Assembly (NCBI RefSeq): GCF_001949145.1
Contig: NW_019091362.1
Coordinates: forward strand, 1,185,838-1,249,837
DNA length: 64,000 bases
Direction: 5' to 3'
Origin: Acanthaster planci
Lineage: Eukaryota
Below are positions 26,101-63,690 of the stretch, one piece after another. Position 1 is the stretch's first letter; every line of letters starts with the position of its first letter. The translations under genes were made by a program, and so were the position numbers. The notes below the pieces were generated by a model. That model worked only from the letters and a program-made list of their open reading frames with translations, had not been told where the DNA came from and searched no databases.

Positions 26101-29100
26101 TTGAAGTTGCACTTTGCAGAAATCCGTTCTTTTCCATCAACAGAAAAGGGGAAATTATCAGTTGTAAATGGGTAAAAATGAAACAACATACTCATATTCG
26201 TCCTGTATAAGGGTCAGTTCTTGATTGTGCTGTTCAACAAGGATGTCTACTTCAGCTCTGGGAACCATCTCCTGCAATGCACAGTGGCAAGACAGAGTTT
26301 TACAGAGAATTCTTAGTCCTCTAATAACTTTGCAGCTCCAAACTCCCAACACTAATACTCCAACATTCTAACCACCACTGCTGCTGCTGTCACTGGTTCA
26401 CTGCACTCAGCGGTTACTTACAAGGTTTCAACAAGTTTCTCTTCAGGTGTAATGCGCCATCCCCAAATAAGCCTTTTGCGAGTTCAATTTGAATCAAATC
26501 TTATACACTGAGTTATCCAATTGCACGTAAACATAACAATTTGAATTCCCAGACTAAAGACACTGTTGCTACACCTTGTGATTCGGGGCAAGCTTTCTGC
26601 ATAGCGACCACCATCTCTGGAATGGACTGGTTCCTTTGTGCCCTTCTTATCCACTGAAGAAGGTGTATTGTTGCAAGGCGTCTCTTATGCAACTAAGCAA
26701 AAGCTTGCCCCGAATCACCAGGTTTGCCAACAGTGGTTTTAGTATGGAGAATTCCAACTTTTATGTTCACGTGAATTTTAAGAACTCAGTGTACCAGATT
26801 TTGTTCAAATTTAACTTGCAAAAGGCTTACTGACTGAGAGTTCTTCAGCGAATCGTCTGCATTCTAGTCTGTCAGTCTGTTCTTATCAAGGATGGCAAGA
26901 GTCAGTGGACTGGACAGTTAAGAGTTACATTTTTTGAAGGAGTCAAGCATTGTACTGTAGGTACATCACAGCAGGTTCTGCCTTTCTAAGGATTCCAACG
27001 AACAGGTTGGTGAAGGGTATACAGCACTCTAGCTAGGCAGACTGATTACGTGTACACAGCATAGATCTTTCTGAAGACAATGCACCTCGGGGTCCATGTG
27101 TGTCCCTCGGGTTTTCAAAACATATCCCACATCACAACAGTAAATAATTGCTTTGTCATATCTCTGTCTTGATGATGTCATTCACTTGTTTTGCTGAGGG
27201 AAATTATGGGCGACAAGGGAATCTTTGAACATGAGAGATATGTGATGCCTGCATTATCCTGTACACTGGGGGTGCATGTATGCATGCGTACTTGTGATGT
27301 CATAAAACACTGGCTAATGCGATGTCTTATGGTGAGGGTGTCATGCGGTAATGTGGCACTGTCATGTGATTGGGCTAATGAAAAAACAGTAGGCATGAGA
27401 AGTCACACTCTGGCTGATTTGCATCCAGATCAGACCTCTCTAATCGATACATGTGGCACATTTCTAAGCAGAGGAGGGTTTCTGAGTCGATTTATTTCAT
27501 GAATAAATAACTTACAGAGGAATTGTCGGAGTAAAACTGGCACTGTGTTTCATCTTAAATGCAGTGACAACTGTCGTTTTCATTTTGGCCCTTTTCAACC
27601 AACATACACTTTGACATATTCACGCTATTAAATGGGGGTATATTATGCCTAGGAAACACGGCCGATAGAATTTTTGAGAATGAGATGTCCCAATATCGCA
27701 ATGCATACAAACTCATTGGTCAATTACTGGTTTTTCCGAGGACACACTGGAAACGATCGACAGAGCTGACAGACATCTCTCCTCGTAGCTTTTGTTGATT
27801 GACAAGTCTTCTTTCTTCATCTTCCTCAGGTCCACGCCGGTGAGATCCAGCACAATGTCAGTTACTGACTCCGACTCTGAACCGAAAAGAAAAAAGCTGA
27901 CAAATCACAATCTCCTTTCCAACAGTCAACCTATGAGGTGATACAGGTAAAGTCAGACACAATTATTCTTCACAAGACGACGCAGCGCATTCTTTAGGCT
28001 CTTAAATTACTGCTCCTTGATGACCAACATTTGAAAACAAGTGTACAGCGTGTAAAGTGTGGCATAAGTGAACCTTGCAGAAGTCAAAATGCTCAGCACA
28101 TCCTGAGCCAAAGGCACATGAACCTTCTGCACACGCACACCGAGGGCTCCCACCAAAAGACTGTCTCTACTATGTACAAACACACCCTCTCTTGCTCCCG
28201 CTCGGGATAGGCGACATTTGTAAAGGACTACCAGTTCTTCGTGCAGCACTGGTAATTTCACCTGTTTGGCCTCATGGGCAAGTACGCCAGTCAACAACTT
28301 TACTGGAGCATACCTACCTGTTTCTTTATCATGTACGAATGGTCGATGGACCCTGGTGTAGTAGAAAGCAATGGGGATGTTACCACAGGATACAGGGGCA
28401 CTCCCTCGGTCCTTGTGACTTGTACTGATCGGGTAGAGAGGGAAAGAGGAAGGCCGAAGATCCTTCAACTTGTCAGCCTCTTCAATGATTTCAATTTCCT
28501 ATGACAAACAAGAAGTAACACGTTAACCCTGTTGTCACCATGCCGTCCAACACAAATCAGTACAATCATAGTACTGAACAATCCTGCACAGGTTTTTTAT
28601 GGGACAGGTGCAGCCCATTTATAACAGCAAAGCAACACTTCTCTTGAGCACTTGCTCACAGTCTGTGTGCATGGTCTGTAGTCTGGGGTACACCTACCTG
28701 ATTTCCACAGAATGTGCACAAATTGATTTTTTGCTTAAGAGGAATGCGGTCAAGTGACAGAAAAACCTTAAATAACAGTGAGGATTCTGAAGAAACCTCT
28801 AGAGGCCCCTGCTACACAGAGATTTTGCAGTGACATTCTGAATGACAACCATGGAGACTCTAGCTAGAAAGGGAGATTTTAAACAGAATGTACAGAGGTT
28901 TTTAGTTTCTATGGTATAACGCGCATTCTATTCAAAACAATTTTTGGCCTCTTATGATTAGCGTATTGGTTTCTGTAAACTGATGTGAGTTTGGTTACAA
29001 AGGGCAATACGCCTGTTTAATCCTTTAACACTGGGATACTTTTGACCGCGACTGCTGGGCTGCGGTATGCCCAGTATTCAAAGCCCTGTCCAGCAGCAGG

Positions 29101-32100
29101 CCCACGTTGAAACCGCAGGTGCATGATGAATAGAATGTATGTGTGGTATGCACTAATCCTCACACAAAGCCGTGGCTGTCGACGTCTCCCGGTGTGAAGG
29201 GGTTAAACATGAGAGTCCTGAAATGATTGAGTGACTGTTCCACCCAACGGGCCAAACATGATAACTGTACTGATTCTTAGTTTGAATTCTCTTTGGAGGA
29301 AGCTTTATACATGTACGTGCAACCTTAAAAATCATTACATTAAGAAAGTACTTTACAAAATTTGGATAACAGGTAATGGATATTACCATGCTGTGGAGGT
29401 CCTCCATACCAACTGATCCCATGGCAACCATATCTTCCAGTATCCCAGAATGCACTGCAATCCTCATTGGTTCCTCTGCTGATGAGACTGGCCGTGATTG
29501 GCTAGAGCTTGCTGGTGTGGCTGTGCCTGCGTCAGACTTTTCTGCTGCCTCCTGGCCCAACTCCTCTCCTTGCTTTTTCAGCTCAGTGTCATGTCGTATT
29601 GGCTGGTCGCCAATGGGAATGGCAACGTCATGAAAGTTTGTATCTGGGGGTGCTTTTGTCTTGTCCCCGTCACCTCCATTAGCACTGGAATCTTTTCTGC
29701 TGGCTGCCGATGATCCTTTGGAACCAATCATGGATTTAGGTTTCAGTGCTGACTTCAAGGGTGCTGCATTGAGATAAGTAGACAAGCAATCTTGAATCAA
29801 CTCCTGGTACTGTGATTTACTCAGGAAATACCAGGTTTTGTCTCAAACTTTCACATCTTAAGAGAGGATACCATGGTTTTCCCCAAATGTCACTTAAGTA
29901 TGACAAAGCTGTTATGGGGATAGTCCTCATGGCAATTAGTGCACCATAGTTACAGCTCAGCCACACTCACGTGACTAATAAATGTAATGCATGGGAAATA
30001 ATGCGTATGTGTATACAAAGCAGGAATGTTCATCATGGTTACATGCCTGAGTCCAGACTGCGTGTTAAACATGGTGTCAGAAGTGGGATTCCAACCCATG
30101 ACACAAGTTTATGAAGGGGAGCTGGGTCATTCCATGAGATCGGGGCATAATTTGTGACGGTGTCCATTTTTACATGGGTTCCTTAAAAATGAACAGCTAT
30201 TTCCCTGCCCGTAGATTCCAAATTCTACATCTTGCAAGGCTAAATACAGAGGAGTGTGTTATTTCTACAGAGTAAATGACCTACTCTACAGGTCATGACA
30301 GATGGGAAAAGTTACCCATGTAAAAAGACCACCGTCATAAATTGTGCCCCAACCTCATGGAACGACCCAGCTTGTAATTGCAATGGCTCACTGTTTCTTT
30401 ACAGTTGTCTTTTACACCTAAACTCATTTTTGAGAGGTTCCCTCTTTCTGAGTTTCCTGTGTATGCCAAATATTAAAGCCAAGTTGGTGTTGCAGTGAGG
30501 CAAGGCTATCTGGGATAAATACACCTGGTGTCATGCCAGCTAGAACATGTTCAGAGCCTGTGAGACAGCCAAACAGATACAGTAATCTCATGCTTGAGAA
30601 GAGATCACATAAAATGTTCTATGAAAAGCTCCAATTAATTGCACGTTCAGTTGGACTACCAAATTGACTTACATTACTGAAAAGTCCTGAAATGAAATCC
30701 CAACAATGCGATGTCAAAATATCAAAAATTTCAACCTAAGACTCGATCTCCCAAATGTTTGATGTCTAACGTACATTTTCCACTGCCTCCATTTTTGTCA
30801 TCAAAGACTTCCGTCCTCAGGAACTTCTTCATGAAGTTGACGCTGCACTTGAGATCCTTGTGATCCAGTCCAGTTGGCTTGTACAGTCTGATGTTGAGAG
30901 TGTAGTCATACTCTGGCTCATGTGTCCAGACAACCTGAGCACCCATGAGAATGAATGATCACTTCTGTCTTGCTTTTCGATGTTACGAATAGTCTTAGCT
31001 ACATTCAATTTTTGGCAACATTTGTGCTCAAACTACTACAATTGACACAGAAGTTTCTTTCCAAAACGGGTTCAGAACGGAGCAAGAGTGCAACTAGAAA
31101 GTAAATTTGATGTGATAACACATCTGAAACATAACTTGGCGGAGTTGAAATGCATTTTGCTTTGGCGGTGGAATATTGTACAGGTTCTTTCAATGGGGCA
31201 TCCCAAAACTTTGGTGGATTTGCACTGAGAGGTCTGCTGTGATGTCACAATTTCGTACTTTATTTGCGCTCAAGCTGAGTAAAAATTGACTGTGTTATGA
31301 TATAATTTTTTTCTTGTGAATGTGAAACTTTTCATTGGAACAGGAATACAGTAATACCTGAAACATCCTTACAACAGCAGCAGAAGAAGTAAGGTAAAGT
31401 GGGACATAAGGGTACATTTTGAAGAATTTTGTTCATATGGACTGTGTGTTTAACAAGGCCGGCAATCTAGAAATGGGAACAGATCCCACAAAATGAGCCT
31501 TCGGGAACTCTCTTCAGTAATCTTGTTTTAGTTAGCATAATAGAAGCACACTGAGGCCTTTGTTGTGCTGTAATAGTCCAGCATTCTGATGTCAGACTGG
31601 AATTATGTTGGTAAAAAAAAGAGACTAAGGGCTTGTATTGATTTACACTGTGCAATATTCCTTAAAAGGTCTTTGACTTATAAGGTCAACAATCCTAGCC
31701 AAATCTCATTTGGTCCCCAAGTCCCCACTCTCAATGTTGGGTCTCACTGACAATTATCCCAAGAATTTTGGCCAGGATTGTAGATGGGTGACCAATGCAT
31801 CTGATTACCTTGTCTGCTGAGGGAGGTTTGGGTGCCGGTACCTCTATATAGACTGTCTGTGGTTCAACTATCGTTGCTGGTGGGACTATTTCTTGTTTGG
31901 TCCCCTTCTCTCCCTCCTCTCCACTCAACCCTTGCTTGGACCTTCTCCGGAACTTCACTTTCTGATTGTACGAAACAAAATCAGCAAAGCCGTTTGCTCT
32001 GTCAATATCAGGTTTTTTTTTTCAATTTTAACTCAACTGAAGAGCCAATACCCCACAAAAAATTTTGATGTAGGCTCGCCTGATATGTAATTTTACAATA

Positions 32101-35100
32101 CGTAAGTTTGGAGTCTGTAACATTGACAGAGATACTGGTTTTTGAACTTGTTCAGAGATGTTGGAAATCTGTTGAAGTTTGTTTTGCCTCACAGGAAATC
32201 TTTATCCTCCAAACCCAAATGTTGAGAAGTAGAAATTTCATAGAGAGTGTTATGATGGGTGGAGGAAACTTACCTTTTTTAAGCTACCTCACCTCTCAAG
32301 CCTACTTTGAATAATGTAAGTTTGTTCGAGCGAGGACCATTTGTCAACCACGGGTTGAGTTTGCCTGGTAAACCAAGACATATCGTGTGCACAGGTTACC
32401 AGGGAAAATCAACCCAAGGTGATGAGCAAGAAACTGATAACCCCCTGCTCCACCACTGAAATGTTCAGTTTCATTGACAGGCCTCCTGAGGGAAATCTAT
32501 AAGGAGGCGGGGGGGGGGCAGGTGGGCTAACCTTGCTGGCTGGTGTGACCATGTCACTATCGATGTCTTGCTGGGTGTGGCCAGTCTGCGCTGTTGCTCT
32601 CGCTGTGCTTGCATCCTCCTCTTCATCTTCGGAATCCTCCTCAGTGAACTCCAGCTCATCAGACTGCCATCAATCGAAACACACTATTTTATAGCAACTG
32701 TAAGCAAGGAAGGGGGCTGCAGGTACCTAGGAACTTATCACATTGCCTCATCAGGTGCAATTACCAGTAAATAAATAGATTTTGTCACCAGCTGCGTAAC
32801 CACCTCTGTGCCTTTATTTGTACTAATATATTTTCAGCAAACAGTGTACAGACACTAACTGTCCGTTAATGTTGCAATAATGATTGAAAAAACAACTTGA
32901 AGCAGCCAAATTTCTTTAAAAAGGGTACAACAGGCCTNNNNNNNNNNNNNNNNNNNNNNNNNNNNNNNNNNNNNNNNNNNNNNNNNNNNNNNNNNNNNNN
33001 NNNNNNNNNNNNNNNNNNNNNNNNNNNNNNNNNNNNNNNNNNNNNNNNNNNNNNNNNNNNNNNNNNNNNNNNNNNNNNNNNNNNNNNNNNNNNNNNNNNN
33101 NNNNNNNNNNNNNNNNNNNNNNNNNNNNNNNNNNNNNNNNNNNNNNNNNNNNNNNNNNNNNNNNNNNNNNNNNNNNNNNNNNNNNNNNNNNNNNNNNNNN
33201 NNNNNNNNNNNNNNNNNNNNNNNNNNNNNNNNNNNNNNNNNNNNNNNNNNNNNNNNNNNNNNNNNNNNNNNNNNNNNNNNNNNNNNNNNNNNNNNNNNNN
33301 NNNNNNNNNNNNNNNNNNNNNNNNNNNNNNNNNNNNNNNNNNNNNNNNNNNNNNNNNNNNNNNNNNNNNNNNNNNNNNNNNNNNNNNNNNNNNNNNNNNN
33401 NNNNNNNNNNNNNNNNNNNNNNNNNNNNNNNNNNNNNNNNNNNNNNNNNNNNNATTAAGACAATAGTATTAGTACCATTCTTATGTTCTCATGTTTTTAA
33501 TTTTAGCCTTTCCTCAATTTATTACGGTAGTTCTGTCATTTCAAGCAGACGTTATTGTAACTACATCACTACAAGTCTATTAAATCAATTAAAAATCGGG
33601 ATTTTTCCTGTGCGCACGAGATTGCCGTTTCTAAGTATGGCCCCTTCCATCATAAGTAGTATAAATTGCATCGTTAGTGTTCTTGGAGCCAACCTATACA
33701 CTTGTAAACACGTACTGATGTTCAATGTACATGTAGCATACATACATAGCTTACCATTGAACCTGGTCATAGCTTGGAGTAATATTGAAAGAAACGGTAG
33801 GCACTTGTTGGGGCTATTTCAACAAATTCTGTCTTTCTGAGACATTTCAGGTCAGATCGTTTGTAATAAGGCTTACACAAAACATTTCTGAAAGAGTGAA
33901 GCTGGCAAATAAGTAGTGCTGGAAAAGACAAAGCCTCTTTGTAAATAATACTGGGGTGGATGGTACCTAGAAGGAATAAGTATCTTTATTATAAAACAGC
34001 ACGGAAGGAGACCAGCTTAGATACAGCAATCTCGTGCGAAAATGAAAAATCACGATTATAAGGTCTTTTTACAGAGCACAAAAATCCCACTTAGATTAGA
34101 AATTAATAGCAAAACAATTTAACGGGATTTTCTGAAGAAAAAAAATCAACAAAGCCAGAAAACCTGAGAGAAATGAACATCAACGTCGCACCCCTGTACT
34201 TTTTCAATGGCCCGCTCACACTTCTTACCGCCAAGGTCATTTGTGCGCATACGTGCATAATCATGAATTTAGAAGTGAACCGGTGAACAAGTAAGATGTA
34301 CTTGTGATTAGACTGCAACAAAGCTACTTAATGGATTGAGATGGACTTGTGACCGGCCTCGTTTCAGCCCTAGCATATGGCCCCACCTGTTTGTTTGGAC
34401 TTACCGAGCTGATGTCAAACTCGTTGCCGGAGGTGTGGCTGATGGAATCATCCTTCTTCCCGTCTTCCTCATCTTCATTGTCTGAATCCTCTTCTCGGTC
34501 AAGTTCATCGATGTAGGCATGTAGATGCTCCATTCTGTCCCCAGAAACAACGTGTCATGTAAGACAAGTCTCCTCACAAACCAAGATCTGACTGGTTTTT
34601 TCAGTTTTGCCTGATTTTGTGCTTCATGAAATCATGTGCCATTAATACGGTTATCCGGCCAGATCATAACCTTTTAGAAAACCCAATAGTGAAAAAAAAA
34701 ACTTTACTTGAAGACTGCAAAAGAATTCATATACGTGTACAGAAAGGTTGTTCTAAAGTTGGATTCCGTGCAAAAACTAAAAGCACATCATTATTTACCG
34801 TCTAACGAGCCAGTTCAATGTTTCAACTGTGCATTCTCAAAATTAAGCGCACTGTAAGTTATTTGAAAATGCTGAAGCACACATGCAAAGTTGGCCCCAT
34901 CACCATGGCCACAAGCCAACCCATCGGCGCCAAACATGTTCAACCTGGCGTGATATGTTGCTGTAAAATTTGCCATAACCCAATCTGCAGGAGCGGCATA
35001 GGAAATGATTTTAACCAACTGGACGTGAGACACTGATTTTTATTTTCACACAAACTGATACTGCTGGACATAAGTGGCCTCACCCAAGTCTGGCTTTCTG

Positions 35101-38100
35101 CTTGAAGTTGTCGATGAGAAAGCGCCAGCGTCGTCCATGGCCACGGCTGCTCGTCAGTTTGGCAAACAGTTTCTCCCAGTTCATGATACGCTTCTCATGT
35201 TCGATGCGCTTGGCCTGATTGAAACAAAAAGTACACCAAGAAACCACCTGAAATTTGGCCAAAGCCCAACATTACTGGTGCTCTGTATCTTTGTCAATTT
35301 TTTTTTCGGTCCCATAACCCCCAATACAAGCCATAAGATTCTCCATCTGATTATACCTGAGCAATCAGTTACACCTGCTTAACAGCTTGCAGAATTTTTT
35401 ATCTTTTTTTCTTGAAAAATTCAACTTGTGAAAATACCAAGATAGTTTTATTTAGTCTTTTCTTCTTAATACAAGAAACCACAAAGATAATGTACATGTA
35501 ACTCTAGACACGAGAATGGAAGAGACCATATAGCCCCATTGGTGTCCCACTTTTAAACCACAGGCATACGCCTCAAATACTGACCAGAGAATCACTGCAC
35601 AATATTTGTACCATATTTCTGACCACAATCTCTGACTCAAGAAGAGATAACGATTTCAAATGCAGCTTGCCAGAGAGGTCTGAAGGGGTTCTAGTTTGTG
35701 GAATCTTGACTTCTTCTGTATGTACAGTACATGGATGCTGTTCTGAAGTATCAGTGGTATCCAAGTGAGTAACAACAGGACGCCAGACTACTCTGTCCGA
35801 TGTATCAAATCCTGTGACCCGTTTGGACACATCAATGGTCCACCTTTGCTCCTTTGGCCATATTTGGGATCCAGTTTATCGGCTTCACAACAGGTTCATT
35901 CTCGGTCCTTGTGAGCAGTGGCCAGCAAACCTGATTCTTATTTGGCAAATATTCTCGTGGGAAATGAATAAACAAGTGAAAAAGCTTTAGTAGACTAAAC
36001 TCACCTGTGCATCAGCCAGCTGTAACCTCCTGATGGCGATATTCAGCTGCTTATGTTTGCTTTCATAGTCAGCATGAAGCTTCTTCAAGGCCAGACTCTT
36101 CTCTTCCCAGGAACCAGAGTAGACACGGACCAGCCGCACTAGCTCTGAGGTGGGTGTGTACAGGTCGGTGGTACTAAAGGGGTCCCAAACATTTACATGG
36201 ACTACATGTGAAAAATGTGCAAATGCAAATTTCATGCTGATCCTCTGCACTATCCCACTCCCTCTACACAAGTTGAACAGTTGACCCTGGGCCTGGCTGT
36301 CTTTTGTCTGAAGCAACATAACCTTTTATGAGTAGTTTTGTGAAAATGGATTTCATGTTAACTTAAAAAACTTATTCTATAAATGTGAATGCGTACACAG
36401 CTTCCGTGATCGTACAATCAAGATGCTTCTGAAAGCGAAACTGTTGCTTAGCAAGTTTACGTGCTGAATACAAATAAGCTGGCAATCATTCATACTTAAG
36501 AAATGTAAGAACGCGTCATAACCTTCAGCAAATTATGTTATGATTTTAGTATTTTTTGTGGAATTCTATGCTAAGTGAGGCCAAGTGCGGGCTGAAGTAC
36601 CTTCTGAATAGTCTTCCAGCTATCATGGTGAGTCTGGCCATCAAGGACGGAGGCAGAGCATGGAGAAGCAGCTCATCCTTCAGATTTAGGAACTACGAGG
36701 AAGCAAACATCCAAATCCTGAACTGAGACCGCATATGAATGTTATGGCTTATGAGGAAGTAACATGTGAGCCTTAGCCACTTTCTAGAAGCTGCAACTGT
36801 TTCCCATAGACAAGTGTTCAACTGCAATCCTCAGCCAGTGGATTTAGACAAAGCCTTAACCCTTAGAATAGTCCTCAACAGTGCATTGAAGGCATTTATC
36901 CACTTGTTATGTCGCATTCACTTTTTCATTTCAATATACTAGATTCTGCCATACATGTACTATCATTTCCATATTACAATGTGGGAAAATGTTACAGCCA
37001 ACAAGCCTCTGTTTAAAAACAAAATCAAAAGTTTCATCAATCAAATCCTAGAATACATGAGAAAGCAACGCACTAGGTTTGAAAGATGCTGTATTCAAGG
37101 TTTGAAAAAGTGTGCTTTTAACAGAAATCATTATACCCTGTCAGGACCTGCATGCATTAAATTGACACAATGACACTTGTTACGAACCTCTGCCAAGGCT
37201 GCCTGGACCAGTGCAATGGAGTTGAGTACCCCATCACACAGCATCTCAAATTTGTTTGTCTCTGCTTGAGCGGCGGCCTTTGCAGCTGCAAACTCATCTT
37301 CACTCTGTCAACCAATACAACAGAAACAGTCTAATTGATCAAAGGGTCCAAGTGATGAGGTTTGGTTAAATGTAGATACTGCGCCACTTCCTACTCCTCA
37401 CAACCACTTCACACTGCATGACATATGTCAATATGAAAGGATTTCCTGTGTCGCAACACCGAGGATCAAAGATCATATTGCGCCGCACCAGATGTCGAAC
37501 TTCACCGTGAATACACGTAAAACGTTGTAAATCGCATAGGCGCCATTTGAGCAAGCGATACACCTGCGCAATGCACATTAATGCGCAGGCGCCGCGGCAG
37601 GCACGTGCACCTGGTGAGCCTGCGCCTAAGCATTACCGTAAACTGCGCAGTTCAAATGGCACCCACAGTGATTCCACCTTTTATTGGGCAGAGTTATCCA
37701 TCTTGCACCTTCGGCGCTGAGGATGTTTAAATGTGTTTCAGCAAATTCTGTATGTAGTGCAGGGTGACATCTACACTTGACCTCATGCTTGAGAGATTCT
37801 AATTGAGTTTGTACACAAACACAAACACTTGAAATATTCTGCAGAGGTAGTGTGGTAGAGCGAGTGTGGGGCCCTCAGGTGGCCATGGGCCATATCGCCA
37901 GGCGTTGCAGCAAAGCAGCATATACCACCCTGTGGCAAAGTTTAAGAGCTTTAAAAAAGAGGATGCAGAAAAAAATATGGCATGAATATTGAAAAAGTGA
38001 CAACAAAGGATCAACATATTTATATATTTAATTCTGTATTAAAGACTTTGGTTGCGGTATCTTGTAGTTTTCCAAAGTTGGTATCTTCAGCCCAAAATAA

Positions 38101-41900: not shown

Positions 41901-42410
41901 AAATTATCTCTGTGTGTTGACCAAATACAGTGAGCATTAAGCCTGGGTATGGGGTACCTGAAGAACTCCAAGTCACTTCCCCGTACGACTTTGAGCCGTT
42001 GTTTACATGGGGTTGTAACGCTATGTACATGTATTTGTTTTTAATTGAGCTCTTGAGGTAAATGATCTGGTTACACAGATTCCACTTTAACATTCAAATT
42101 TCCTGGTAACACCAACCTTGAGGCACCTGTAGCTCTTGAAAATGGTGTACCAGAGGTTTCAGACCATGAGACTAAACTTTGTATTTTTTGAAAAGTCTGA
42201 CACTTTTACTCACCAATCTCTTGTTTCACCCGACGATGATTGCACCGGTTGTGTTTACCACGTTTCATTCTCCTTTTTCATTTTTTTTTTAGTGAATATG
42301 ATGTTTGTGGAGAGCTAATGATACGTTTTTAGACATAACCATAATACTCTTATTTGATTTCCCCCTCCAGGATTGTTTTACGTAATTGTCACCCTCATCC
42401 GCTTCCAACA

Positions 42411-45400
42411 ATGTCATTCCTTTTCGGAAAAAAGAAGACACCAGCAGAAATGCTGAAGCAAAACCAGAGGGCCTTAAATAGAGCCATGAGGGAGCTGGAT
42501 AGGGAACGGACGAGGATGGAAGGCCAGGAGAAAAAGGTCATCGCAGATATCAAGAAGATGGCCAAGCAAGGACAGATGGTAAGCAAGCTTTTGGGATAGC
42601 AAAATAACACAATTCAGCTATTTTTTTGGAATTATCTACAGCAGAGCCTGATTTCCCTCGCAATGCAACGCAGGACTAAGCTGCTTTGGTTGGCATGTTT
42701 TGTGGTACACTGCCCCAAGTAACTGAGTCAGACTTGAGTGTCAAATCAAACGCTGTCGCAGTTGCAGGACTGAGTTGAGGGAGGCATACATGTTAAATTG
42801 TATGCACTGACAGTATAGGTCAGTACAACTGACCATTGCAAGAAAATACCAATTATGTTTATTTCACAAGCAATACCCTGATATGGCCAGGTACCTGTGA
42901 CGTATATTCCCAATCCCTCAAATGTCTTTGAAATGGAACAATTTCTGAAAATTTTGTTCACCGAGGACAGGATTAAACATTCTTTGCCATGTCCTGGAGG
43001 CTGTCACTTGAGGGCAGTTGACTAATCACAGCACATTTAAATTTCATCAGAATGCTTGTTGGCTGATCTGCTCAGGAAGCAGTTGTATGAAAATATTTTA
43101 CCGTTTATGTGCATGGAGGAAGATGTGTGGAATAGTTTGATGAATTAGTAAATGGATTGTTAATTAAGCTACCCAAGTTAGTGAATGGAATGTAATGGGT
43201 AATGGATTGTATTCATGTGTCAGCCATCTTGAACTCAAAGGGAAATCAACTTTTCATTTTTGGAACCGAGAGCAAATAACAGCAATAGAATAAAAGTTCA
43301 TTACAATTCATGCCAGTTTACGTTTGGAATAATGTAAATTTTGTGATGAATTATATCTAAATTATATTAGAATATATTATATTTGAGAGTTTTAAGCCAC
43401 ATTCAAAACACTGAAAGGGAGACTTGGAACCCAACATGGTCTGGCACCAACCCTATTTAACAGATTACATTATATACTGTATGATAGATTCAGGGAACAG
43501 GATCACAAATGGCTTCCCTGTGAATAAATGGCTTCACCTAATGAGGTGACATTTGCCAGTTTGAATGACCAGTTCGTTGCAAACATTGAACTTCATTTAT
43601 GTCTTTTGTTCTTCCAAGGACGCAGTCAAGGTAATGGCTAAAGACTTGGTCAGGACTCGAAGATACGTCAAGAAGTTCATCATGATGCGAGCCAACATCC
43701 AGGCCGTCTCCTTGAAGATCCAAACCCTGAGATCCAACCAGGCCATGACTGATGCCATGAAGGGGGTGACAAAGGCTATGCAGGCCATGAACAGACAGGT
43801 GGGTGGGTAAGAGCCAGGCTAGCTTTGATTGCTGCAGGATTGCAGTAGTCAGTGGTCACCATTCACTTTGGTTTAACCCTCCTGTGGTTTAACAGCACAG
43901 ATATGCACGAATGCCAACAGTCACTCTTGTGCATGTGTTGTCTTTATGGAACACACACATGCACAGGTTCAATGTGCATACGGTTGGTTGCTGGCACAAA
44001 ATGACCAGGGTCTTTTGTGCCGTCCTCTTCACTGCAGTTGGTTTACTGCACAATGATGCACATGAAACAGTGAAGCACAGTTGTTGGGTAGCACAAAAGT
44101 GCAATCTGATATTCCTGTGAGGGATAGTTGGTGCAGTGCACATCATGACACAGCTGTGCATCTTTGTGCAGCTTACCAACTCACCCAAATTATGACTTCA
44201 GCATAGTTTAAGGAATTGTCCAAAGTTCTACTGCGTGTCTTCTATGTTAAGTCAAAGTGTAATCTCCATAAGAACCCCTTCAAACTACCTAAATACACCA
44301 GTTTTGCCTTCCAGTGGTCCAGTAAAGTCTTTGTTCAAGATCTGCACACTATAATAACATACTGCTCAAATTCTTCCACATCTCTACGTTGTATGCCAAG
44401 TGAAAGGCCCAAAAGTTCTAAACAGCATTCACTCCATGGAGGAACAAGAAATAACATGCTTTTAAATGTAGACTGTAGTGATGATCCTTACTTGAAAACC
44501 GCATGTTTATGCACATTTGCACATGTGCGCCGAGCACATGAATCATCCTGGGTTGGAAAATTTCCCATGAGCCAGTCTCTTCCTCGGTGGTGAGGGAGTG
44601 CTTCAGGCAGGGGCGGAACTTAACCAGAGGGGAAATTACAGCCAGACAGCTGTCACTTTCTGACTGTTTATCTTCACATGAACCCATCTGACCTTTGTAC
44701 ATGGCAGACTAATACCTGATGAGGTCGAAAACGTTTCGTTGTTACATTGAATTCATTCGGGTTTTTTCAGCAGCAATTAAAAAGGAAATCAATACGGCCA
44801 TAAGGTGGATGTTGACGGAATTAGAACACTACAGCTTCCATGACCAATAAGGTTCTGTCTCTTCTCACTTGAAACAGTTGAAGCTACCACAAATTCAGAA
44901 GATCATGATGGAATTTGAGAAGCAGTCTGAGATTCTGGACATGAAGGAGGAGATGATGAATGATGCGGTTGACGATGCTCTTGGCGATGAGGAAGATGAG
45001 GAAGAAACGTGAGAGAAACTCAAAACCGCCACCTTTGCTAAATGCCATTAACCCATCTAGGGTTTAACAGCACAGATATGCATGAATGCTAACAGTCACT
45101 CTTGTGCATGTGTTTTTACATGGAACACAAATATGCACGGGTTCAATGAGCATACGGTTGGTTGCCGGCACAAAATATCACAGGGTCTTTTGTGCCGTCC
45201 TCTTCACTGCAGTTGGTTTACTGCACAATTATGCACATGAAACAGTGAAGCACAGTTGTTGGGCAGCACAAAAGTGTAATCTGATATTCCTGTGAGGGAC
45301 TGTTGGTGCAGTGCACAGCATGACACAGCTGTACATCTTTGTGCAGCTTTCTAATTGACCCAAAGAGCGACTTCAGCAGAGGCAGGTTAAAGGTGCAAAG

Positions 45401-57370: not shown

Positions 57371-60300
57371 TTAAACTGATGTCTCTGCCTCCATGTTGGG
57401 GACCTTTGGTGTAGGGAGATCAAACACGATGGGCTTGTTGGAGGGGCTGTAGTTAACTGTGCAGATGGAGGCGTTAATAAACGTGGTTTTGTTGTCGGTG
57501 GTGACACCGTAGCCTTCGTGGATGTGTCCGAAGATATGGTACTTGGGCTTGACCCGGCGCTGGATAGTAGTGAGGAGTTCCACGCAGCCCGCTCGCTCTT
57601 TGGATGTGGTCAAATCCCCATGACCTGTGCAGACATGGAAAAAGCTGCTTCATATGCATTGCGCATGTACAATGACCAATCAAATTCACAGATCTAGTAA
57701 TTTACACACGTGCAGCCTGGGTTCAATCCCAGCCCGGTCCACATGTGGATTAGGTTTTCAGCCCCTACCTGATCCCGTGGGTTTTACCCAGAATATTCCT
57801 CTGGGGTTTTTATCCCACCTCTAAAACCGTAACTGCTTCTTACTGTCTCCTCTCGTGCTACAGTGCCTAGGGGTGCTCTGAGGAATCCTTGGATTAATTT
57901 TAATTAATTTTGGTTTGATTACCAGATATATTTACTACCACTGAAAGCAATAGCTCTATATGTACAGTAGATCTGTTGGCTTGATTTGTCAGGCAGGATA
58001 TGCCAGCGTGCCTCACTATGCTGCTCTTTCGCCGTAGTTGAGTCGTAGTCTAAATCCAGACAAAGCTGTATTCAAAAGTTACGGCTGTGGCTGGAAGTGC
58101 TACATGTATGTATGCCAATGGAAGCCACTTACTAAAAAGCTGCAGCTGTTTCCATAGACGTAAATGTTACTCCTAGCCACAGCCTGTTTATTTAGACAGG
58201 GCCTTTAAGATGCACTCTCATCAAACCATAATAATCTCGTTGGTACTACCCTCAAGTAAAGGTCAACACACCAATGTTTATCAATCAGGGAGGAGATAGC
58301 ATAATTACTCCTGGGACTCCAAAAGCAGCAGGGTTTCCATTTAAACAACGATGGAGTCCTGGATGGCCCAATAGACTGTATCCGCGGCGTCCCCAATTTC
58401 AGTCATATTCCTTAACATACAGTACAAATTTTAAATCCATAAGGGGGTTGGTACCAGGTGATTTGGGGGGGTCAGAATGAAATCGTAGAATATAGTCTAG
58501 TTCCTTGAATTTAACATTTTCCAATAAATACACTACCTTGGGGAATATGACTGAAATTGGGAACGCCGTGAATATGGTCTATTTGGAAAAGGTACATTGA
58601 TCAAACCTACAATACTGTGTCTTGAAACTAACATCCAGACTCAGCAAATCTAAATTCACGATATTGAATTGAAAATTAATTACTATTATGACGTTAATAT
58701 AAGCATTTCAGAATGCAAAATCAAGTATACACAAGAACCAGCTTAGACAATTTCACAGTGCTACTGAGAAACAAAGATCACCAGCATTCTGTATTTATTG
58801 TAACTGGTTCCCAGCTAATTTTTGCTCAACACTTAATGCATAAGTTTGTCGAACATTATTTCTCACTTGTGAGTAAAGCGAGTCTACATGTATAAAACCA
58901 GGTTGAGATTTAAGTCAGGTCCAGTTTTGAGCTGCTTTGTTTTTTACTCTCCTGGACTCCAAGTCTACTTCATGCTACTTAGAGGGAACCCGCCACTCAT
59001 TACAATGTTCAGCTACATGTACTGGGTCCTTGCAGAGGCTTCTGAAAGAGCTGCACCAAGACTGGATACTTGTCCTAATTGACTGAAGCCATCAAAGCTT
59101 CTAGACTGCTGTGTGCTGCGATGATTCTGTGGTTTGTTGTCCCTCTCATCTTACCGACTTCATTTTCTGGTAAGCTTTGAAGTGAAACACGATGCCTATG
59201 TATGCTCATCCACTGCCACGGTTGATCATGGCAAAAGAGCTATCCTGATTGCTGTCAGTCTCTGACTATATCAGAGAGATCACGGTAGTATCCAGACCAT
59301 AGCAGCGCTCAATGTATTCTTTATACGCACAATGTCAATGTAACAGCAAGGCCGGGGGGCAGGGGATTAGACAGACAAGTGGTACTTTACCTAATGGTGG
59401 TCCATGCGTGACTAGCACATCAATGCCCGCTGGAATAAGGTTCCATTTGTCAAGTAGCGGCTGACCTCTTGGCAAATTGAAAGCCCAGTCACAGAACTCT
59501 GGTTGCCTATGAATGGAAAGACACAGAAGACAGTTCGCCTCAACGGGTGCTGTCTACACAAGCATGTACCATAATGCTTGTGTCCCTGAGCGATCTATTT
59601 TACCAAGATTCCTTCAACATTACGCAATGTTTAACTGTACAATGAAACGGCCAAATTCAAACGCACTCAACACTTTGTCAACAGTGTCTGATACATTCAT
59701 GAATCAACCGATCTAAGTACTACCAATCAAAAAAATTATCAAAATAACATGAAAATTCCCTCAGGATTTCGAATTATTACAAATTTGAAAATTCATCATA
59801 GGTGTGAAAATTAGTATTTGTAGTCACCAAATTCATAAGGAGGTTCTATATTTAAGACTTGTGATCACAATTGGAAAAAAATCAATAGATATACATGTAG
59901 TTACCATGGCGACCCGTAGATACGGAATCCCATAATGTTGACCTCGGCATCTTCTAGGTAGGTGCAGTTGGTAAGCAACGAGGGGATGTGCTTCCAATCT
60001 TCTTGTTTGACTTCTTGCAGCGCCGTGGCAAAGCTCATAAAGACGTGGCTGCTCTGCTCTGTCATTAGCTGCCGGTCAAAGGTCACTTCGTGGTTGCCGG
60101 CAATGACAACCTTGTGCCTGTGAGGCAACTGACCTGGGGGAAGGAAAGCAAATGCATGTGTTTCCTTTTAAACTTTTAAAACTTCAAATTTGATTTCCAA
60201 CTTACAGTTTAATAATCAACATTTAACAGCAACTCCATTAATGACCTCTGCAAAGTTTCCTAAGAACATTTGAAATGGTGCATGTTCAGGAGAGGTTCCG

Positions 60301-63300
60301 GTACAGTAATGGACGTGTTCAAGCTTTTTTGCACAGGACATCATGACATTAAATCTTCACACAACAAAATAAAACGAAGGCCTGTTTTTGATACAGGTCT
60401 GGAATATACTGTAGGGTCTTTCAAGTTTCAGCTTAACATAAATATGGATTAAATTCTCAATTGTCAATTTTTACTCTCAAAAGCAAAAGAGACTATTAAT
60501 GGTGCGCCATCCCATATTCTACATATTCTAAAATACCATAGTTTTGACTTACCCTACTGTGGGTTAGGAAAAGTCACTGGTTACAAGTACATTTGAATTA
60601 TACATAACTATTTTCATGGTAAATGTAATTTCTTCAGTCAAAATGGAGGATTCCAACTGTTAGGGCTAAGGCTGCTGGCAATCCAAAACTGTACACAACT
60701 TGAAGAACTAGGGGCCTACCTACTCTGAACAATTTCTTTTTTAGTAAGACCTAAAAATATTGTAAATGGTATTGAACACACCTCAGCTGTCATCAGCTCT
60801 TAAACAAAGAGCAACTAATACATGCAGGACATCTTCAACTTTCTCATCATATTTTCGACAACTGTGACAAGATCGACGTGTACTCAGCTCACCCAGAAAT
60901 GCATTGAAGGCTACAACCTCCCTAGGCAGACCAATGTTGCTGAAATTGCCGGCATGGATCAAGATATCACCTTCTGGTATCTTGGCCATGTGACTTGTCC
61001 TCGAAAACGTGTCCGAGATGCAGACAAACCTGGTGTAACCTGCGTAGTGACAGACACACATGAACAAAAAAATAAACCAGGAGGGAGGCAAGACTCACCC
61101 AAGAATTCGTTGAATCTCTTTATTTCCCTGGGGCGACCAATGTTGGTGAAGTCGCCCGCATGAATAAGGATGTCACCGTCGGGTATTGTCGGGAGAAGAC
61201 GGGCGGCTTGGTTGTGTGTGTCAGAAATACAAACAAAGCGTACGGCCCCTGAACAGTGCAACACAAAGACGGATACCATGCAAAAAATCAGGGTAAAGCT
61301 GAAATGAGGTGAAGGCATGCAGGATGGAAACCGAACAAGCAAAATTAAAACTAAGTGTGCTCAAAAGAAAAACACAAAGAACACCTTAATATTAATCATG
61401 AATACATGTACAATGTACTTAAACATTTACCCTGATGTTAAATTCTGTAAATAAGATTAAGTAGCTGCACCGCAAAATGCTTATGGACTGCAGTGGGAAG
61501 GCCTTCCCCGTGTTAAGGGGGGCAATTTCTATTGTTAAGAAAGACAGAACAGCAATATGGGAGCAGATTTCGTCCCCATAATAATTTTGGTCTCTATAAC
61601 ATCTACATTATGTACATGCATATTTCAAGAATCTTCATTTAACCCAGTAAGAAGGAAGCTCCTGTGTAAACTTAACGATTAAAACTCGAAAAAGTGAAAT
61701 TTGTCTCTTATTAGAATCTCTGAGAAAGATTTTGTTTTGAAGTAAAAAAAAAATCTGTTCAGCTTGTACCGGTAACTTTGGGCCCTCTTATTTTGACATA
61801 TGTAAGAATTTGCCAGCATTTGTGGATTTCAAAATAAATTCAAAATAAAAACTTGAAAACAAATCAAAACATGGCACTTTTCTTGCAAGACTTGATGAAC
61901 AAACTGAACAGACGTATTTCCAGGTTTTGAAGCAAAGAAAAAGGAAATGATAAAGTTGAAGAATAAGTCAGGGTACTAGCCAATACAGCACAGAATACAT
62001 GCATGGATAAAAAGTAAACATTCAGGCAAAACAATGTGCATGTATACAGGTATGGAAAGTGCTCTAGCATGGGCATGTACTCTGATACACATACGTGTAT
62101 ACAAGAAAGTGTGGACAGCAGAATATGCAAACATGGCTGGGGCATCGTCAGTATTTGGCCTGCCATCTGTCAAGGTCACATGACCCGTCATGTGCAGGGT
62201 GTCATCCACTTTTGTTCAGGCATATCCGGTTCGTAAGTGACTTTGTCACAAAGGCAGACGGGCCATGATTCACAGGCTCCCATTGGACGATCACAGAAGT
62301 TGCGCATTAACTTCTGGTTTCATGGTTCCATGTAACCCTATGTGCAGTGCACGTACATGTATGCAGTGGCCGTGGTTTAAACTGAAGTGACGTCACACTT
62401 GCGAACCGGATTGGGATGAGGTCAGAAAATATGCAGGGTCAAAAGGATATTTCATCCTCTGCTCAGTAGATGCAAACAACCTAAAATAAAAAAAGAAAAA
62501 AAATTTGTCTTTGCTTATATGTGTCAGTTTATCTGTTGGTCCTTTTGTCTTAAATTCTGTCAACACACATGAATGTGATTCATAACTGTGGCTTGGAAAT
62601 CAAAGATAAAGTGTAAGAAACCATACTTCAAAGTTGCCATTTGACAACAAGTGCACATATACATGTATATGTTTATGGACGATCTCCCAACAAGAAAATG
62701 TATCAATCAATTTACAATGTATTTACATATGCAAAAGTTGTGACTGCTTTACTTCTGCAAAATTAATTCTTTATTTAGGAATTAGAGCCTTGCTGTCAGG
62801 TTTTGAGGTTTCTGTTTGGAAAATGATTCTTAAAAAGTAAATTCAATTAATTCCTGCATTACTGGATTTTTGAAGATAGCAAGGTACCAGCAGAATCAGT
62901 GATAAATATTCTTCCAACAATGTGATGCATCTTGACTGCTGTAAGTCCTCCCTGTGTTTCCCCGATATTTCTTACTGCTTCATAAACATGTTTCAGCCCA
63001 AATCCCGTACAACTATAAGGCACAAGTTAATAGTGATGCAGCACTGATTACAGGAGGCTACTTTCTGCATGTGAAAGTTGAATTATGAGACCACACAGTG
63101 CAAGTTTGTTAACAAGAGCAACACTCATGCACATGTACATGTATGTACGGACACAAGTACAGTATACAGACACATGTAGATACATGTATACCCATAAACT
63201 ACATGTACATGTATGACTCAGAGTCTCTGGACCGTTTTCACTTTCATAACCCTTGTGCTGCCATTTCTGGATGAAACCATTTTCTTTTTTTAACTCTTGG

Positions 63301-63690
63301 GAAGTTTTAAGAAATTGATGGTGAAACAGCAGTACATGAAGTGAACAAGGCCCGGGTACATCTATTCTCCATCTGGGCAGACTTCTTATTCACGCATCCT
63401 GCATATTGTGCACGTACTTATGTACTCTTGTACCAAGGCGCGTTGAACATGATGTTGTATTAATGACACTCTTGGCATCATTGTACCAACCTTCGGGTAT
63501 GGGAATGTCTGGATTGATGGGCTGGACCACTCTACAGACCGTGGAGGACCGGTTCTTCATGGCATCCCAGACACATGTAGGCTTGTGGCTCTCCGGGTGA
63601 ACCGTGACCTCCCCGGCGCATTCATCCTCAATGTCCTCATCCCGAGGTTTGGCAGACAAGCTGCGACTTCCTGTGGCGCGTAGGAAGCGT
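57371..63690 (-). CDS. MPPED1: Metallophosphoesterase domain-containing protein (MPPED1/MPPED2, 239AB/239FB family), 5' end not found in window
   Basis: Exons 63690-63491, [61248-61099 or 61039-60893], 60133-59905 (KVVIAGNHEVTFD..YLED..IYGSPW), 59506-59391 (QPEFCDWAFNLPRGQPLLDKWNLIPAGIDVLVTHGPPLG), 57624-57371 (GCVELLTTIQRRVKPKYHIFGHIHEGYGV..*). All five MPE motifs (DxH, GD, GNH, H, GHxH) are present via the first alternative exon. The symbol is family-level; it is probably a co-ortholog of MPPED1/2. Confidence 0.93.
57712..57852 (+). mobile_element. tRNA-derived SINE fragment (same family as 17481-17839)
   Basis: GGTTCAATCCC B-box, then CCGGTCCACATGTGGATT..GGGTTTTACCCAGAAT..CCTCTAAAACCGTAACTGCTTCTTACTGTCTCC, matching the first copy. 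Confidence 0.8.
58369..58584. mobile_element. Palindromic MITE
   Basis: AATAGAC..CGGCGTCCCCAATTTCAGTCATATTCC is inverted to GGAATATGACTGAAATTGGGAACGCCG..GTCTATT. Confidence 0.75.
60893..61039 (-). CDS. MPPED alternative exon B (147 nt, phase 1-1), metal ligands substituted
   Basis: cag|GT TAC..CTG G|gtgagc. Encodes GYTRFVCISDTFSRTSHMAKIPEGDILIHAGNFSNIGLPREVVAFNAFLG with no stops. Confidence 0.75.
61099..61248 (-). CDS. MPPED alternative exon A (150 nt, phase 1-1), canonical DxH and GD motifs
   Basis: cag|GG GCC..TTG G|gtgagt. Encodes GAVRFVCISDTHNQAARLLPTIPDGDILIHAGDFTNIGRPREIKRFNEFLG. Confidence 0.9.
62224..62411. mobile_element. Small TIR element / MITE
   Basis: ATCCGGTTCGTAAGTG ... CACTTGCGAACCGGAT terminal inverted repeat. 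Confidence 0.7.

What the first reader, a model, noticed from the sequence alone, without database searches (positions are those of the whole stretch)
61040..61098. 59-nt intron between the duplicated exons suggests a steric-hindrance exclusion mechanism
Seen: the intron reads gtgagtcttgcctccctcctggtttatttttt-gttcatgtgtgtctgtcactacgcag. It is 59 nt, against 112 nt for the shortest other intron I defined here (23376-23487). Its pyrimidine-rich part sits directly after exon A's donor. Both exons are multiples of 3, so NMD could not remove double-inclusion products. Established: a branch point too close to the upstream donor blocks joint U1/U2 assembly, as in alpha-tropomyosin exons 2/3. Inference: this geometry enforces mutual exclusivity.
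Basis: partly seen in the sequence, partly recalled or inferred. Interest (0 to 1): 0.7.

Follow-up and report, generated by a model that had tools for sequence, protein, structure and literature searches.

The report
Splice switch making enzyme or pseudoenzyme
In the crown-of-thorns starfish gene MPPED2, two duplicated exons only 59 bases apart are each found spliced in alone, the tiny intron likely keeps them apart, and because one exon lacks two metal-binding residues the gene likely makes both a working enzyme and an inactive twin.

Summary
The 59-nt GT-AG intron is real. It lies between tandem-duplicated exons A and B of the Acanthaster planci MPPED2-like gene. It is very short for a starfish: in Asterias rubens 90% of introns are 318 nt or longer. 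An Asterias-identical genomic ORF implies a 39-nt spacer. In 8 RNA data sets, A-only and B-only junctions appear, and 2 of 3 contig sets (one study) keep the intron while long introns nearby are removed. No A-B junction is listed, but depth is low. Against strict exclusion: RefSeq holds spliced A+B models in 9 of 9 starfish and urchin species seen, one urchin spacer appears longer than 120 nt, and flies splice this geometry well. Steric exclusion is therefore likely but leaky and unproven; the mechanism is known. The more interesting point is the exons. B has lost the motif I His and motif II Asp, yet is better conserved than A (96% and 92% against 84% and 82%). It is shared with urchins, and it is the only form found in sea cucumbers. 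This is a likely ancient enzyme/pseudoenzyme splice switch.

The parts
63491..63690 (-). Upstream constitutive exon U of MPPED2-like (donor GTTGGT, phase 1)
   Evidence: U-B junction reads; U-A contig loose end
61099..61248 (-). Exon A, 150 nt, intact motif I (DTH) and motif II (GD)
   Evidence: A-D junction in 4 reads; P0004
61214..61216 (-). His codon of motif I in exon A (equivalent to H67 of rat MPPED2)
   Evidence: sequence; alignment to 3rl3/3rl4
61040..61098 (-). 59-nt A-B intron, GT..AG; no AG between nt 6 and the acceptor
   Evidence: retained in RNA contigs of X1 and X2
61073..61073 (-). Branch-point candidate A (yUnAy), intron nt 26, 33 nt before the acceptor; predicted only
61061..61061 (-). 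Branch-point candidate A (yUnAy), intron nt 38, 21 nt before the acceptor; predicted only
60893..61039 (-). Exon B, 147 nt, duplicate of A with motif I His->Phe and motif II Asp->Asn
   Evidence: U-B and B-D junctions; P0123
61005..61007 (-). Phe codon in exon B at the position of MPPED2 H67
   Evidence: sequence; alignment to 3rl5 (Arg here)
60945..60947 (-). Asn codon in exon B at the motif II Asp position
   Evidence: sequence
60959..60961 (-). Premature stop reached when the 59-nt intron is retained, 66 nt upstream of the B-D junction
59905..60133 (-). Downstream constitutive exon D (motif III GNHE)
59391..59506 (-). Exon E
   Evidence: D-E junction in 9 reads
57371..57624 (-). Last coding exon F to the stop (motif V GHIHE)

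Best explanation
Exons A and B of the starfish MPPED2-like gene are tandem duplicates that are each spliced in alone, and the 59-nt intron between them is likely too short for efficient direct A-to-B splicing, so the gene likely switches between an active phosphodiesterase (A) and a predicted inactive twin (B). Shown: A-only and B-only junctions, and intron-retained A-intron-B contigs. Inferred: U1 at A's donor and U2 at a branch point 26-38 nt away hinder each other. The spliceosome then joins A to D or U to B, or reads A-intron-B as one 356-nt exon whose frameshift stop would send it to NMD. The block is probably leaky, and which exon is chosen probably depends on splicing factors that I did not identify.
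For: Intron length 59 nt against A. rubens Q10 318 and median 763 nt, Lytechinus Q10 398; Drosophila Q10 is 56 and median 69. Branch candidates at nt 26 and 38 against the ~50-nt threshold, OGDH 25-41, Tpm1 41. Raw reads in 4 runs list U-B 9 and A-D 4, with no A-B row. The X1 contig (depth 10.3) runs unbroken 61182-60891 through the intron and then splices B-D; X2 has a contig 61024-61216 across the intron plus U-A and B-D; the bins inside the flanking long introns have zero depth in all 4 runs. P0002, identical to Asterias in both exon peptides, has 13 extra codons (39 nt) compatible with GT..AG ends. Both donors are U2-type, and folding z-scores are -1.29 and +0.70. Exon B is 96% and 92% identical to Patiria and Asterias against 84% and 82% for A. 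The H67R form of mammalian MPPED2 is described as inactive (preprint section).
Against: RefSeq-named spliced A+B proteins exist for 4 of 4 starfish and 5 of 5 sea-urchin species seen, including A. planci isoform X3; I could not see their read support. Junction rows need 3 reads from 2 starts in one run, and one search also lacked B-D and U-A rows, which exist, so 'no A-B row' is weak; 0 of 4 listed A-donor reads has probability 0.41 if A-B were 20%. Contigs drop rare variants, and X1 and X2 are one study. In flies 60-70-nt introns splice fastest and the minima are ~35 and ~15 nt, which nt 38 satisfies. An urchin ORF (P0126) has 41 open codons before exon B with no hidden exon-A end, so the spacer there appears longer than 120 nt. 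Rarity of short introns in Asterias is not a measured minimum, and no A. planci distribution was seen. No enzyme assay of either isoform exists.
Confidence: 0.6

Rival explanations
1. The 59-nt intron is spliced at a meaningful rate, so A and B are two cassette exons and A+B is a real third isoform, as RefSeq models it.
For: A+B models in 9 of 9 starfish and urchin species seen. The nt-38 branch candidate fits fly-type geometry. An AlphaFold2 model of A+B keeps a confident core (mean pLDDT 81.3) from A's strands and B's last helix, with residues ~111-152 looped out, so folding need not forbid it; that model is biased by how single-exon homologs aligned.
Against: No A-B joint is listed in 8 data sets, while the retained form is assembled in 2. 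In Asterias the model needs removal of a 39-nt intron. The four NCBI deuterostome annotations in the rows I saw all bottom out at exactly 30 nt, which looks like a pipeline floor. A+B is the last-numbered isoform seen in 5 species although it is the longest (weak).
Confidence: 0.2
2. Exclusivity comes mainly from regulated repression of one exon by RNA-binding proteins on the U- and UG-rich intron; the intron shrank later in starfish and length is secondary.
For: The duplication is shared with urchins, where an A-only transcript-type protein exists (P0197, P0307) although the spacer appears longer than 120 nt. The intron is U- and UG-rich. In OGDH, lengthening the donor-branch distance did not always release the donor.
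Against: The spacer is extremely short in two starfish orders (59 and 39 nt). Selective retention points to a local splicing defect. No factor or conserved motif was identified.
Confidence: 0.15
3. Competing RNA base pairings (docking and selector sites) hide one exon at a time.
For: Inverted repeats exist: intron nt 32-46 with exon A (15 nt, 80%), and 60832-60847 with two upstream sites.
Against: There are 58 inverted pairs in 3.8 kb. Folding is no better than shuffles (z -1.29 and +0.70). The upstream pairings would loop out both exons. The Asterias-type spacer peptide has no Cys or Val, so it cannot hold the UGUGUG arm.
Confidence: 0.05

Closest known systems
Steric-hindrance MXE pairs: alpha-tropomyosin (Tpm1) exons 2/3 and OGDH exons 4a/4b
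   Same: Two duplicated in-frame exons; the branch point of the second is predicted within 50 nt of the first exon's donor (Tpm1 41 nt, OGDH 25-41 nt).
   Different: Those use distant branch points in a longer intron; here the whole intron is only 59 nt. Their branch points are mapped, this one is predicted. A+B models are annotated here.
Short-intervening-intron MXE class in humans (57 cases among 629 clusters, Hatje et al. preprint 10.1101/133215); Drosophila Dscam exon 17 (title only)
   Same: Exclusion attributed to a short donor-to-branch distance.
   Different: I found no described echinoderm case; the echinoderm minimum distance is unmeasured.
Tandem duplicated exon substitutions that remove ligand binding (ACTN1, ACTN4, ACAN; OGDH calcium site)
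   Same: One exon copy keeps ligand-binding residues and the other loses them.
   Different: Those lose regulatory or structural calcium sites. Here two catalytic metal ligands are lost, and the ligand-less copy is the better conserved one. In the human set 80.6% of ligand residues are kept and only three genes lose most of them.
MPPED1/MPPED2 class III metallophosphoesterases (PDB 3rl3, 3rl4, 3rl5)
   Same: E about 1e-100 to rat MPPED2 for both isoforms; Pfam Metallophos.
   Different: Vertebrate, crinoid and hemichordate proteins seen carry one intact copy of this exon; the inactive mammalian form is a point variant (H67R), not a splice isoform.

Membership tests
Mutually exclusive tandem-duplicated exons | Adjacent homologous exons of similar length and the same phase | tested here: met
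   150 and 147 nt, phase 1, 91 of 150 bases identical, 59% amino-acid identity
Mutually exclusive tandem-duplicated exons | Each exon is spliced in while the other is skipped | tested here: met
   U-B 9 reads, A-D 4 reads; U-A and B-D
Mutually exclusive tandem-duplicated exons | The two exons are not spliced to each other | tested here: inconclusive
   No A-B joint listed in 8 data sets, but depth is low and rows are thresholded; RefSeq A+B models exist
Mutually exclusive tandem-duplicated exons | The two are not both skipped | tested here: inconclusive
   No U-D row, under the same threshold
Steric-hindrance MXE | Branch point closer to the upstream donor than the species minimum | tested here: inconclusive
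   Predicted at nt 26 or 38: below the vertebrate ~50, nt 38 above the fly ~35; echinoderm minimum unknown
Steric-hindrance MXE | Intron length atypical for the genome | tested here: met
   Proxy species A. rubens: Q10 318 nt; other introns of this gene 398-2242 nt; no A. planci distribution seen
Steric-hindrance MXE | A spacer restores joint splicing | not testable with these tools
   needs a minigene
NMD-enforced MXE | The spliced double-inclusion product is frameshifted | tested here: not met
   A+B stays in frame; only the intron-retained form has a premature stop
U2/U12 incompatibility MXE | One exon flanked by U12-type sites | tested here: not met
   Donors GTTGGT, GTGAGT, GTGAGC; U12 consensus recalled
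Active calcineurin-like metallophosphoesterase (isoform A) | DxH, GD, GNH, H and GHxH motifs intact | tested here: met
   activity not assayed
Active calcineurin-like metallophosphoesterase (isoform B) | Motif I His and motif II Asp present | tested here: not met
   Phe and Asn in starfish and sea cucumbers, Phe/Leu and Ser in urchins
Pseudoenzyme (isoform B) | No catalytic activity but a retained function | not testable with these tools
   Inferred from lost ligands and strong conservation

The most novel reading that the evidence does not exclude
Since the common ancestor of starfish, sea urchins and sea cucumbers, one MPPED gene has toggled by splicing between an active phosphodiesterase and a conserved metal-free pseudoenzyme. 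Starfish lock the choice with a 39-59-nt intron too short to splice, and sea cucumbers kept only the dead form and lost further active-site residues. This gives a natural experiment on the proposed non-catalytic role of MPPED proteins.
Probability: 0.45. Interest if true: 0.72.

Novelty: new variant of a known kind. Interest (0 to 1): 0.52.

Why it matters
Steric exclusion itself is known, so the intron alone is a new example in an unstudied phylum, useful for measuring the minimum donor-to-branch distance in echinoderms. The exon pair matters more. Duplicated exons usually keep ligand-binding residues (80.6% in the human set). Here the copy without two catalytic metal ligands is the better conserved one and is the only form found in sea cucumbers. 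Whether MPPED1/2 act as enzymes or as scaffolds is open. A fly preprint reports rescue by inactive mutants, while the published version shows no 'inactive' or 'D49A' in its main text and only suggests scaffolding. Natural active and dead isoforms from one gene make that question directly testable.

Tried and rejected
No whole genome was held, so no A. planci intron distribution could be computed; the A. rubens row of a published table was used as proxy. The representative-protein search never ran because the queue was full, so introns of the neighbouring genes were not mapped. The run search listed no holder on record as RNA; 8 of the 24 listed runs were laid. One search was swamped by a repeat at about 62220-62411. 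X20 had only 7 reads on the stretch, and X3's two short contigs overrun splice sites on both sides of exon A and may be unspliced precursor, so X3 was not counted as retention evidence. A metagenome scan with an exon-B alignment gave 25 loci, best 63% identity; none showed two tandem copies (19 had one motif match, 6 none). Competing RNA structure and U12 incompatibility were rejected. A decaying exon B was rejected: it is spliced in reads and more conserved than A. The single-sequence fold of A+B was useless (pLDDT 36.3). The 49-column exon tree groups the 11 B rows (88/86) but does not resolve the timing against crinoids (79/79). The Dscam exon 17 paper and Kennedy and Berget 1997 were not held, so only their titles were seen. 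No earlier scan finding bore on this locus.

Full report
What is there. Both exon peptides match proteins named Acanthaster planci metallophosphoesterase MPPED2-like at 100%. RefSeq names three isoforms: X1 319 aa (A only), X2 318 aa (B only) and X3 368 aa (A+B). The gene is on the minus strand: U 63690-63491, A 61248-61099, B 61039-60893, D 60133-59905, E 59506-59391, F 57624-57371. These exons reproduce all three proteins from residue 6. The introns are 2242, 59, 759, 398 and 1766 nt, all GT..AG.

Is 59 nt unusual? No A. planci genome was held. A supplementary table of PMC13644364 (I saw passages of the text and six table rows) gives A. rubens Q10 318, Q25 484 and median 763 nt over 134,445 introns, and Lytechinus Q10 398. 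Drosophila has Q10 56 and median 69, C. elegans 45 and 63. So fewer than one in ten Asterias introns is under 318 nt, whereas in flies 59 nt is ordinary. This is a proxy species and a percentile, not a measured minimum. The only yUnAy adenosines are at intron nt 26 and 38. PMC7969005 (passages) gives a ~50-nt steric threshold, OGDH branch points at 25-41 nt and Tpm1 at 41 nt, and notes that lengthening did not always release the donor. PMC5762160 (passages) gives fly minima of ~35 and ~15 nt and fastest splicing at 60-70 nt. The nt-38 candidate therefore fails the vertebrate limit and passes the fly limit.

What the RNA shows. I laid 8 of the 24 listed runs. Four raw runs (18-24% of each read) list U-B in 9 reads, A-D in 4 and D-E in 9. 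No A-B row appears, but B-D and U-A rows are also missing there, because rows need 3 reads from 2 starts in one run. In the second lay the only joint listed is B-D. X1 has one contig (depth 10.3) that runs without gaps from 61182 in exon A through the intron and exon B and then splices to D and E. X2 has a contig across the whole intron (61024-61216, depth 2), a U-A end and B-D. The bins inside the neighbouring long introns have zero depth, so this is selective retention and not DNA. X1 and X2 are one study and are only guessed to be RNA, and contigs drop rare variants. X3 and X20 are uninformative. With only 4 listed reads leaving A's donor, a 20% A-B share would be missed with probability 0.41. 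The retained form shifts frame and stops at 60961, 66 nt before the B-D junction; by the recalled 50-55-nt rule it is an NMD target.

Relatives. P0002, an unnamed genomic ORF whose exon peptides are identical to Asterias proteins, reads through the spacer with 13 extra codons. That is 39 nt, compatible with a GGTRAGT donor and a YAG acceptor. There the retained form would be in frame and escape NMD. An urchin ORF (P0126) has 41 open codons before exon B and cannot hide an exon-A end in any frame tested, so that spacer appears longer than 120 nt, if exon A lies upstream as in other urchins. Spliced A+B models are named for Acanthaster, Patiria, two Asterias, two Lytechinus, Strongylocentrotus and two Diadema species, 9 of 9 seen. 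This is the main evidence against strict exclusion. I could not see their support. In Asterias the model needs a 39-nt intron, close to the 30-nt floor seen in four annotations.

The exons differ in the active site. Against rat MPPED2 structures (E about 1e-100), exon B has Phe at the His that is Arg in chain 3rl5 (H67) and Asn at the motif II Asp; the metal-bridging role of that Asp is recalled family knowledge. Of 314 stored proteins, 258 matched my motif pattern and 56 did not. Of the 258, 234 have one intact copy and 19 carry a B-type copy (Phe or Leu with Asn or Ser), all named echinoderm or closest to echinoderm proteins; 3 have two intact copies and 2 have other single changes. B is 96% and 92% identical to Patiria and Asterias against 84% and 82% for A, and 75% and 71% identical to the single intact crinoid exon against 61% for A. 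The five full-length sea-cucumber-cluster proteins have only the B type, plus GHIHE to GHIPE and, in three, GNH to GHH; one has no Pfam match at E 0.001. Whether sea cucumbers keep an unannotated exon A or an active paralog was not testable, and no brittle-star protein was seen. The fly preprint 10.1101/2020.05.08.084137 (passages and section 10) calls H67R and D65A inactive and reports lifespan rescue by inactive forms. The published version PMC10547211 (passages) has no occurrence of 'inactive' or 'D49A' in its main text; I did not see its supplements.

Mechanism. Shown: duplicated in-frame exons, each used alone; a very short intervening intron; its retention in spliced transcripts; loss of two ligands in a conserved exon B. 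Inferred: steric conflict between U1 and U2, NMD of the retained form, and inactivity of isoform B. U12 incompatibility does not apply. RNA folding is no better than shuffles and the inverted repeats are not persuasive. An AlphaFold2 model of A+B built on 100 sequences keeps a core and loops out about 40 residues, but it follows the alignment. I put the leaky steric model at 0.6, real frequent A+B splicing at 0.2, factor-driven exclusion at 0.15 and RNA structure at 0.05.

Comparison and novelty. Short donor-to-branch distance is a listed MXE mechanism (57 cases among 629 human clusters; preprint 10.1101/133215, passages; PMC6071210, passages). PMC9741552 (section 10) finds ligand residues mostly kept between duplicated exons, with ACTN1, ACTN4 and ACAN as exceptions. 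Other papers opened as passages added little: PMC9438311 (vertebrate peak at 76 nt), PMC3460201, PMC4675715, PMC7404189 and PMC5896119. I found no description of this exon pair. Searches listed 20 and 15 papers with zero MPPED occurrences; searches listed MPPED papers on mammals and flies by title; one search listed none on it. These were loose searches of an open-access library, with only the top listings seen. Verdict: the mechanism is a new member of a known kind and is not proven; the enzyme/pseudoenzyme exon pair is a new variant of a known kind.

Noticed in passing
window 62223-62411: Repeat in the U-A intron with 16-nt terminal inverted repeats (62224-62239 and 62396-62411). Hundreds of RNA reads from other copies end at these borders. 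It looks like a MITE-type element (label inferred).
   Followed up: no
window about 2022-3716 (+): Fragmented ORFs with PADKG, GSPLSP and YIGKTGR-like motifs, suggesting a broken Penelope-like retroelement (motif assignment recalled; no Pfam hit for two fragments).
   Followed up: partly
window 42345-43807 (+) and 4225-6527 (-): Neighbouring genes: a Snf7/CHMP2-like gene and an acyl-CoA thioesterase/BAAT-like gene.
   Followed up: partly
window about 23200-37330 (-): A large multi-exon gene with no Pfam hit in two ORFs tested; it contains the 112-nt intron 23487-23376.
   Followed up: no
P0199, P0303-P0306: Sea-cucumber MPPED proteins carry only the B-type exon and extra active-site changes (GHIPE; GHHE in three), so they look like whole-gene pseudoenzymes.
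   Followed up: partly
P0150: An unnamed 267-aa MPPED with Tyr and Asn at the same two positions and degenerate later motifs, apparently an independent pseudoenzyme.
   Followed up: no
P0214, P0003: Other MPPED proteins with two intact motif-I copies (a catfish near-exact repeat, a pseudoscorpion permuted model); possibly assembly or annotation artefacts.
   Followed up: no
window 61080: One RNA contig (depth 2) has a substitution inside the 59-nt intron; no length variant was seen.
   Followed up: no
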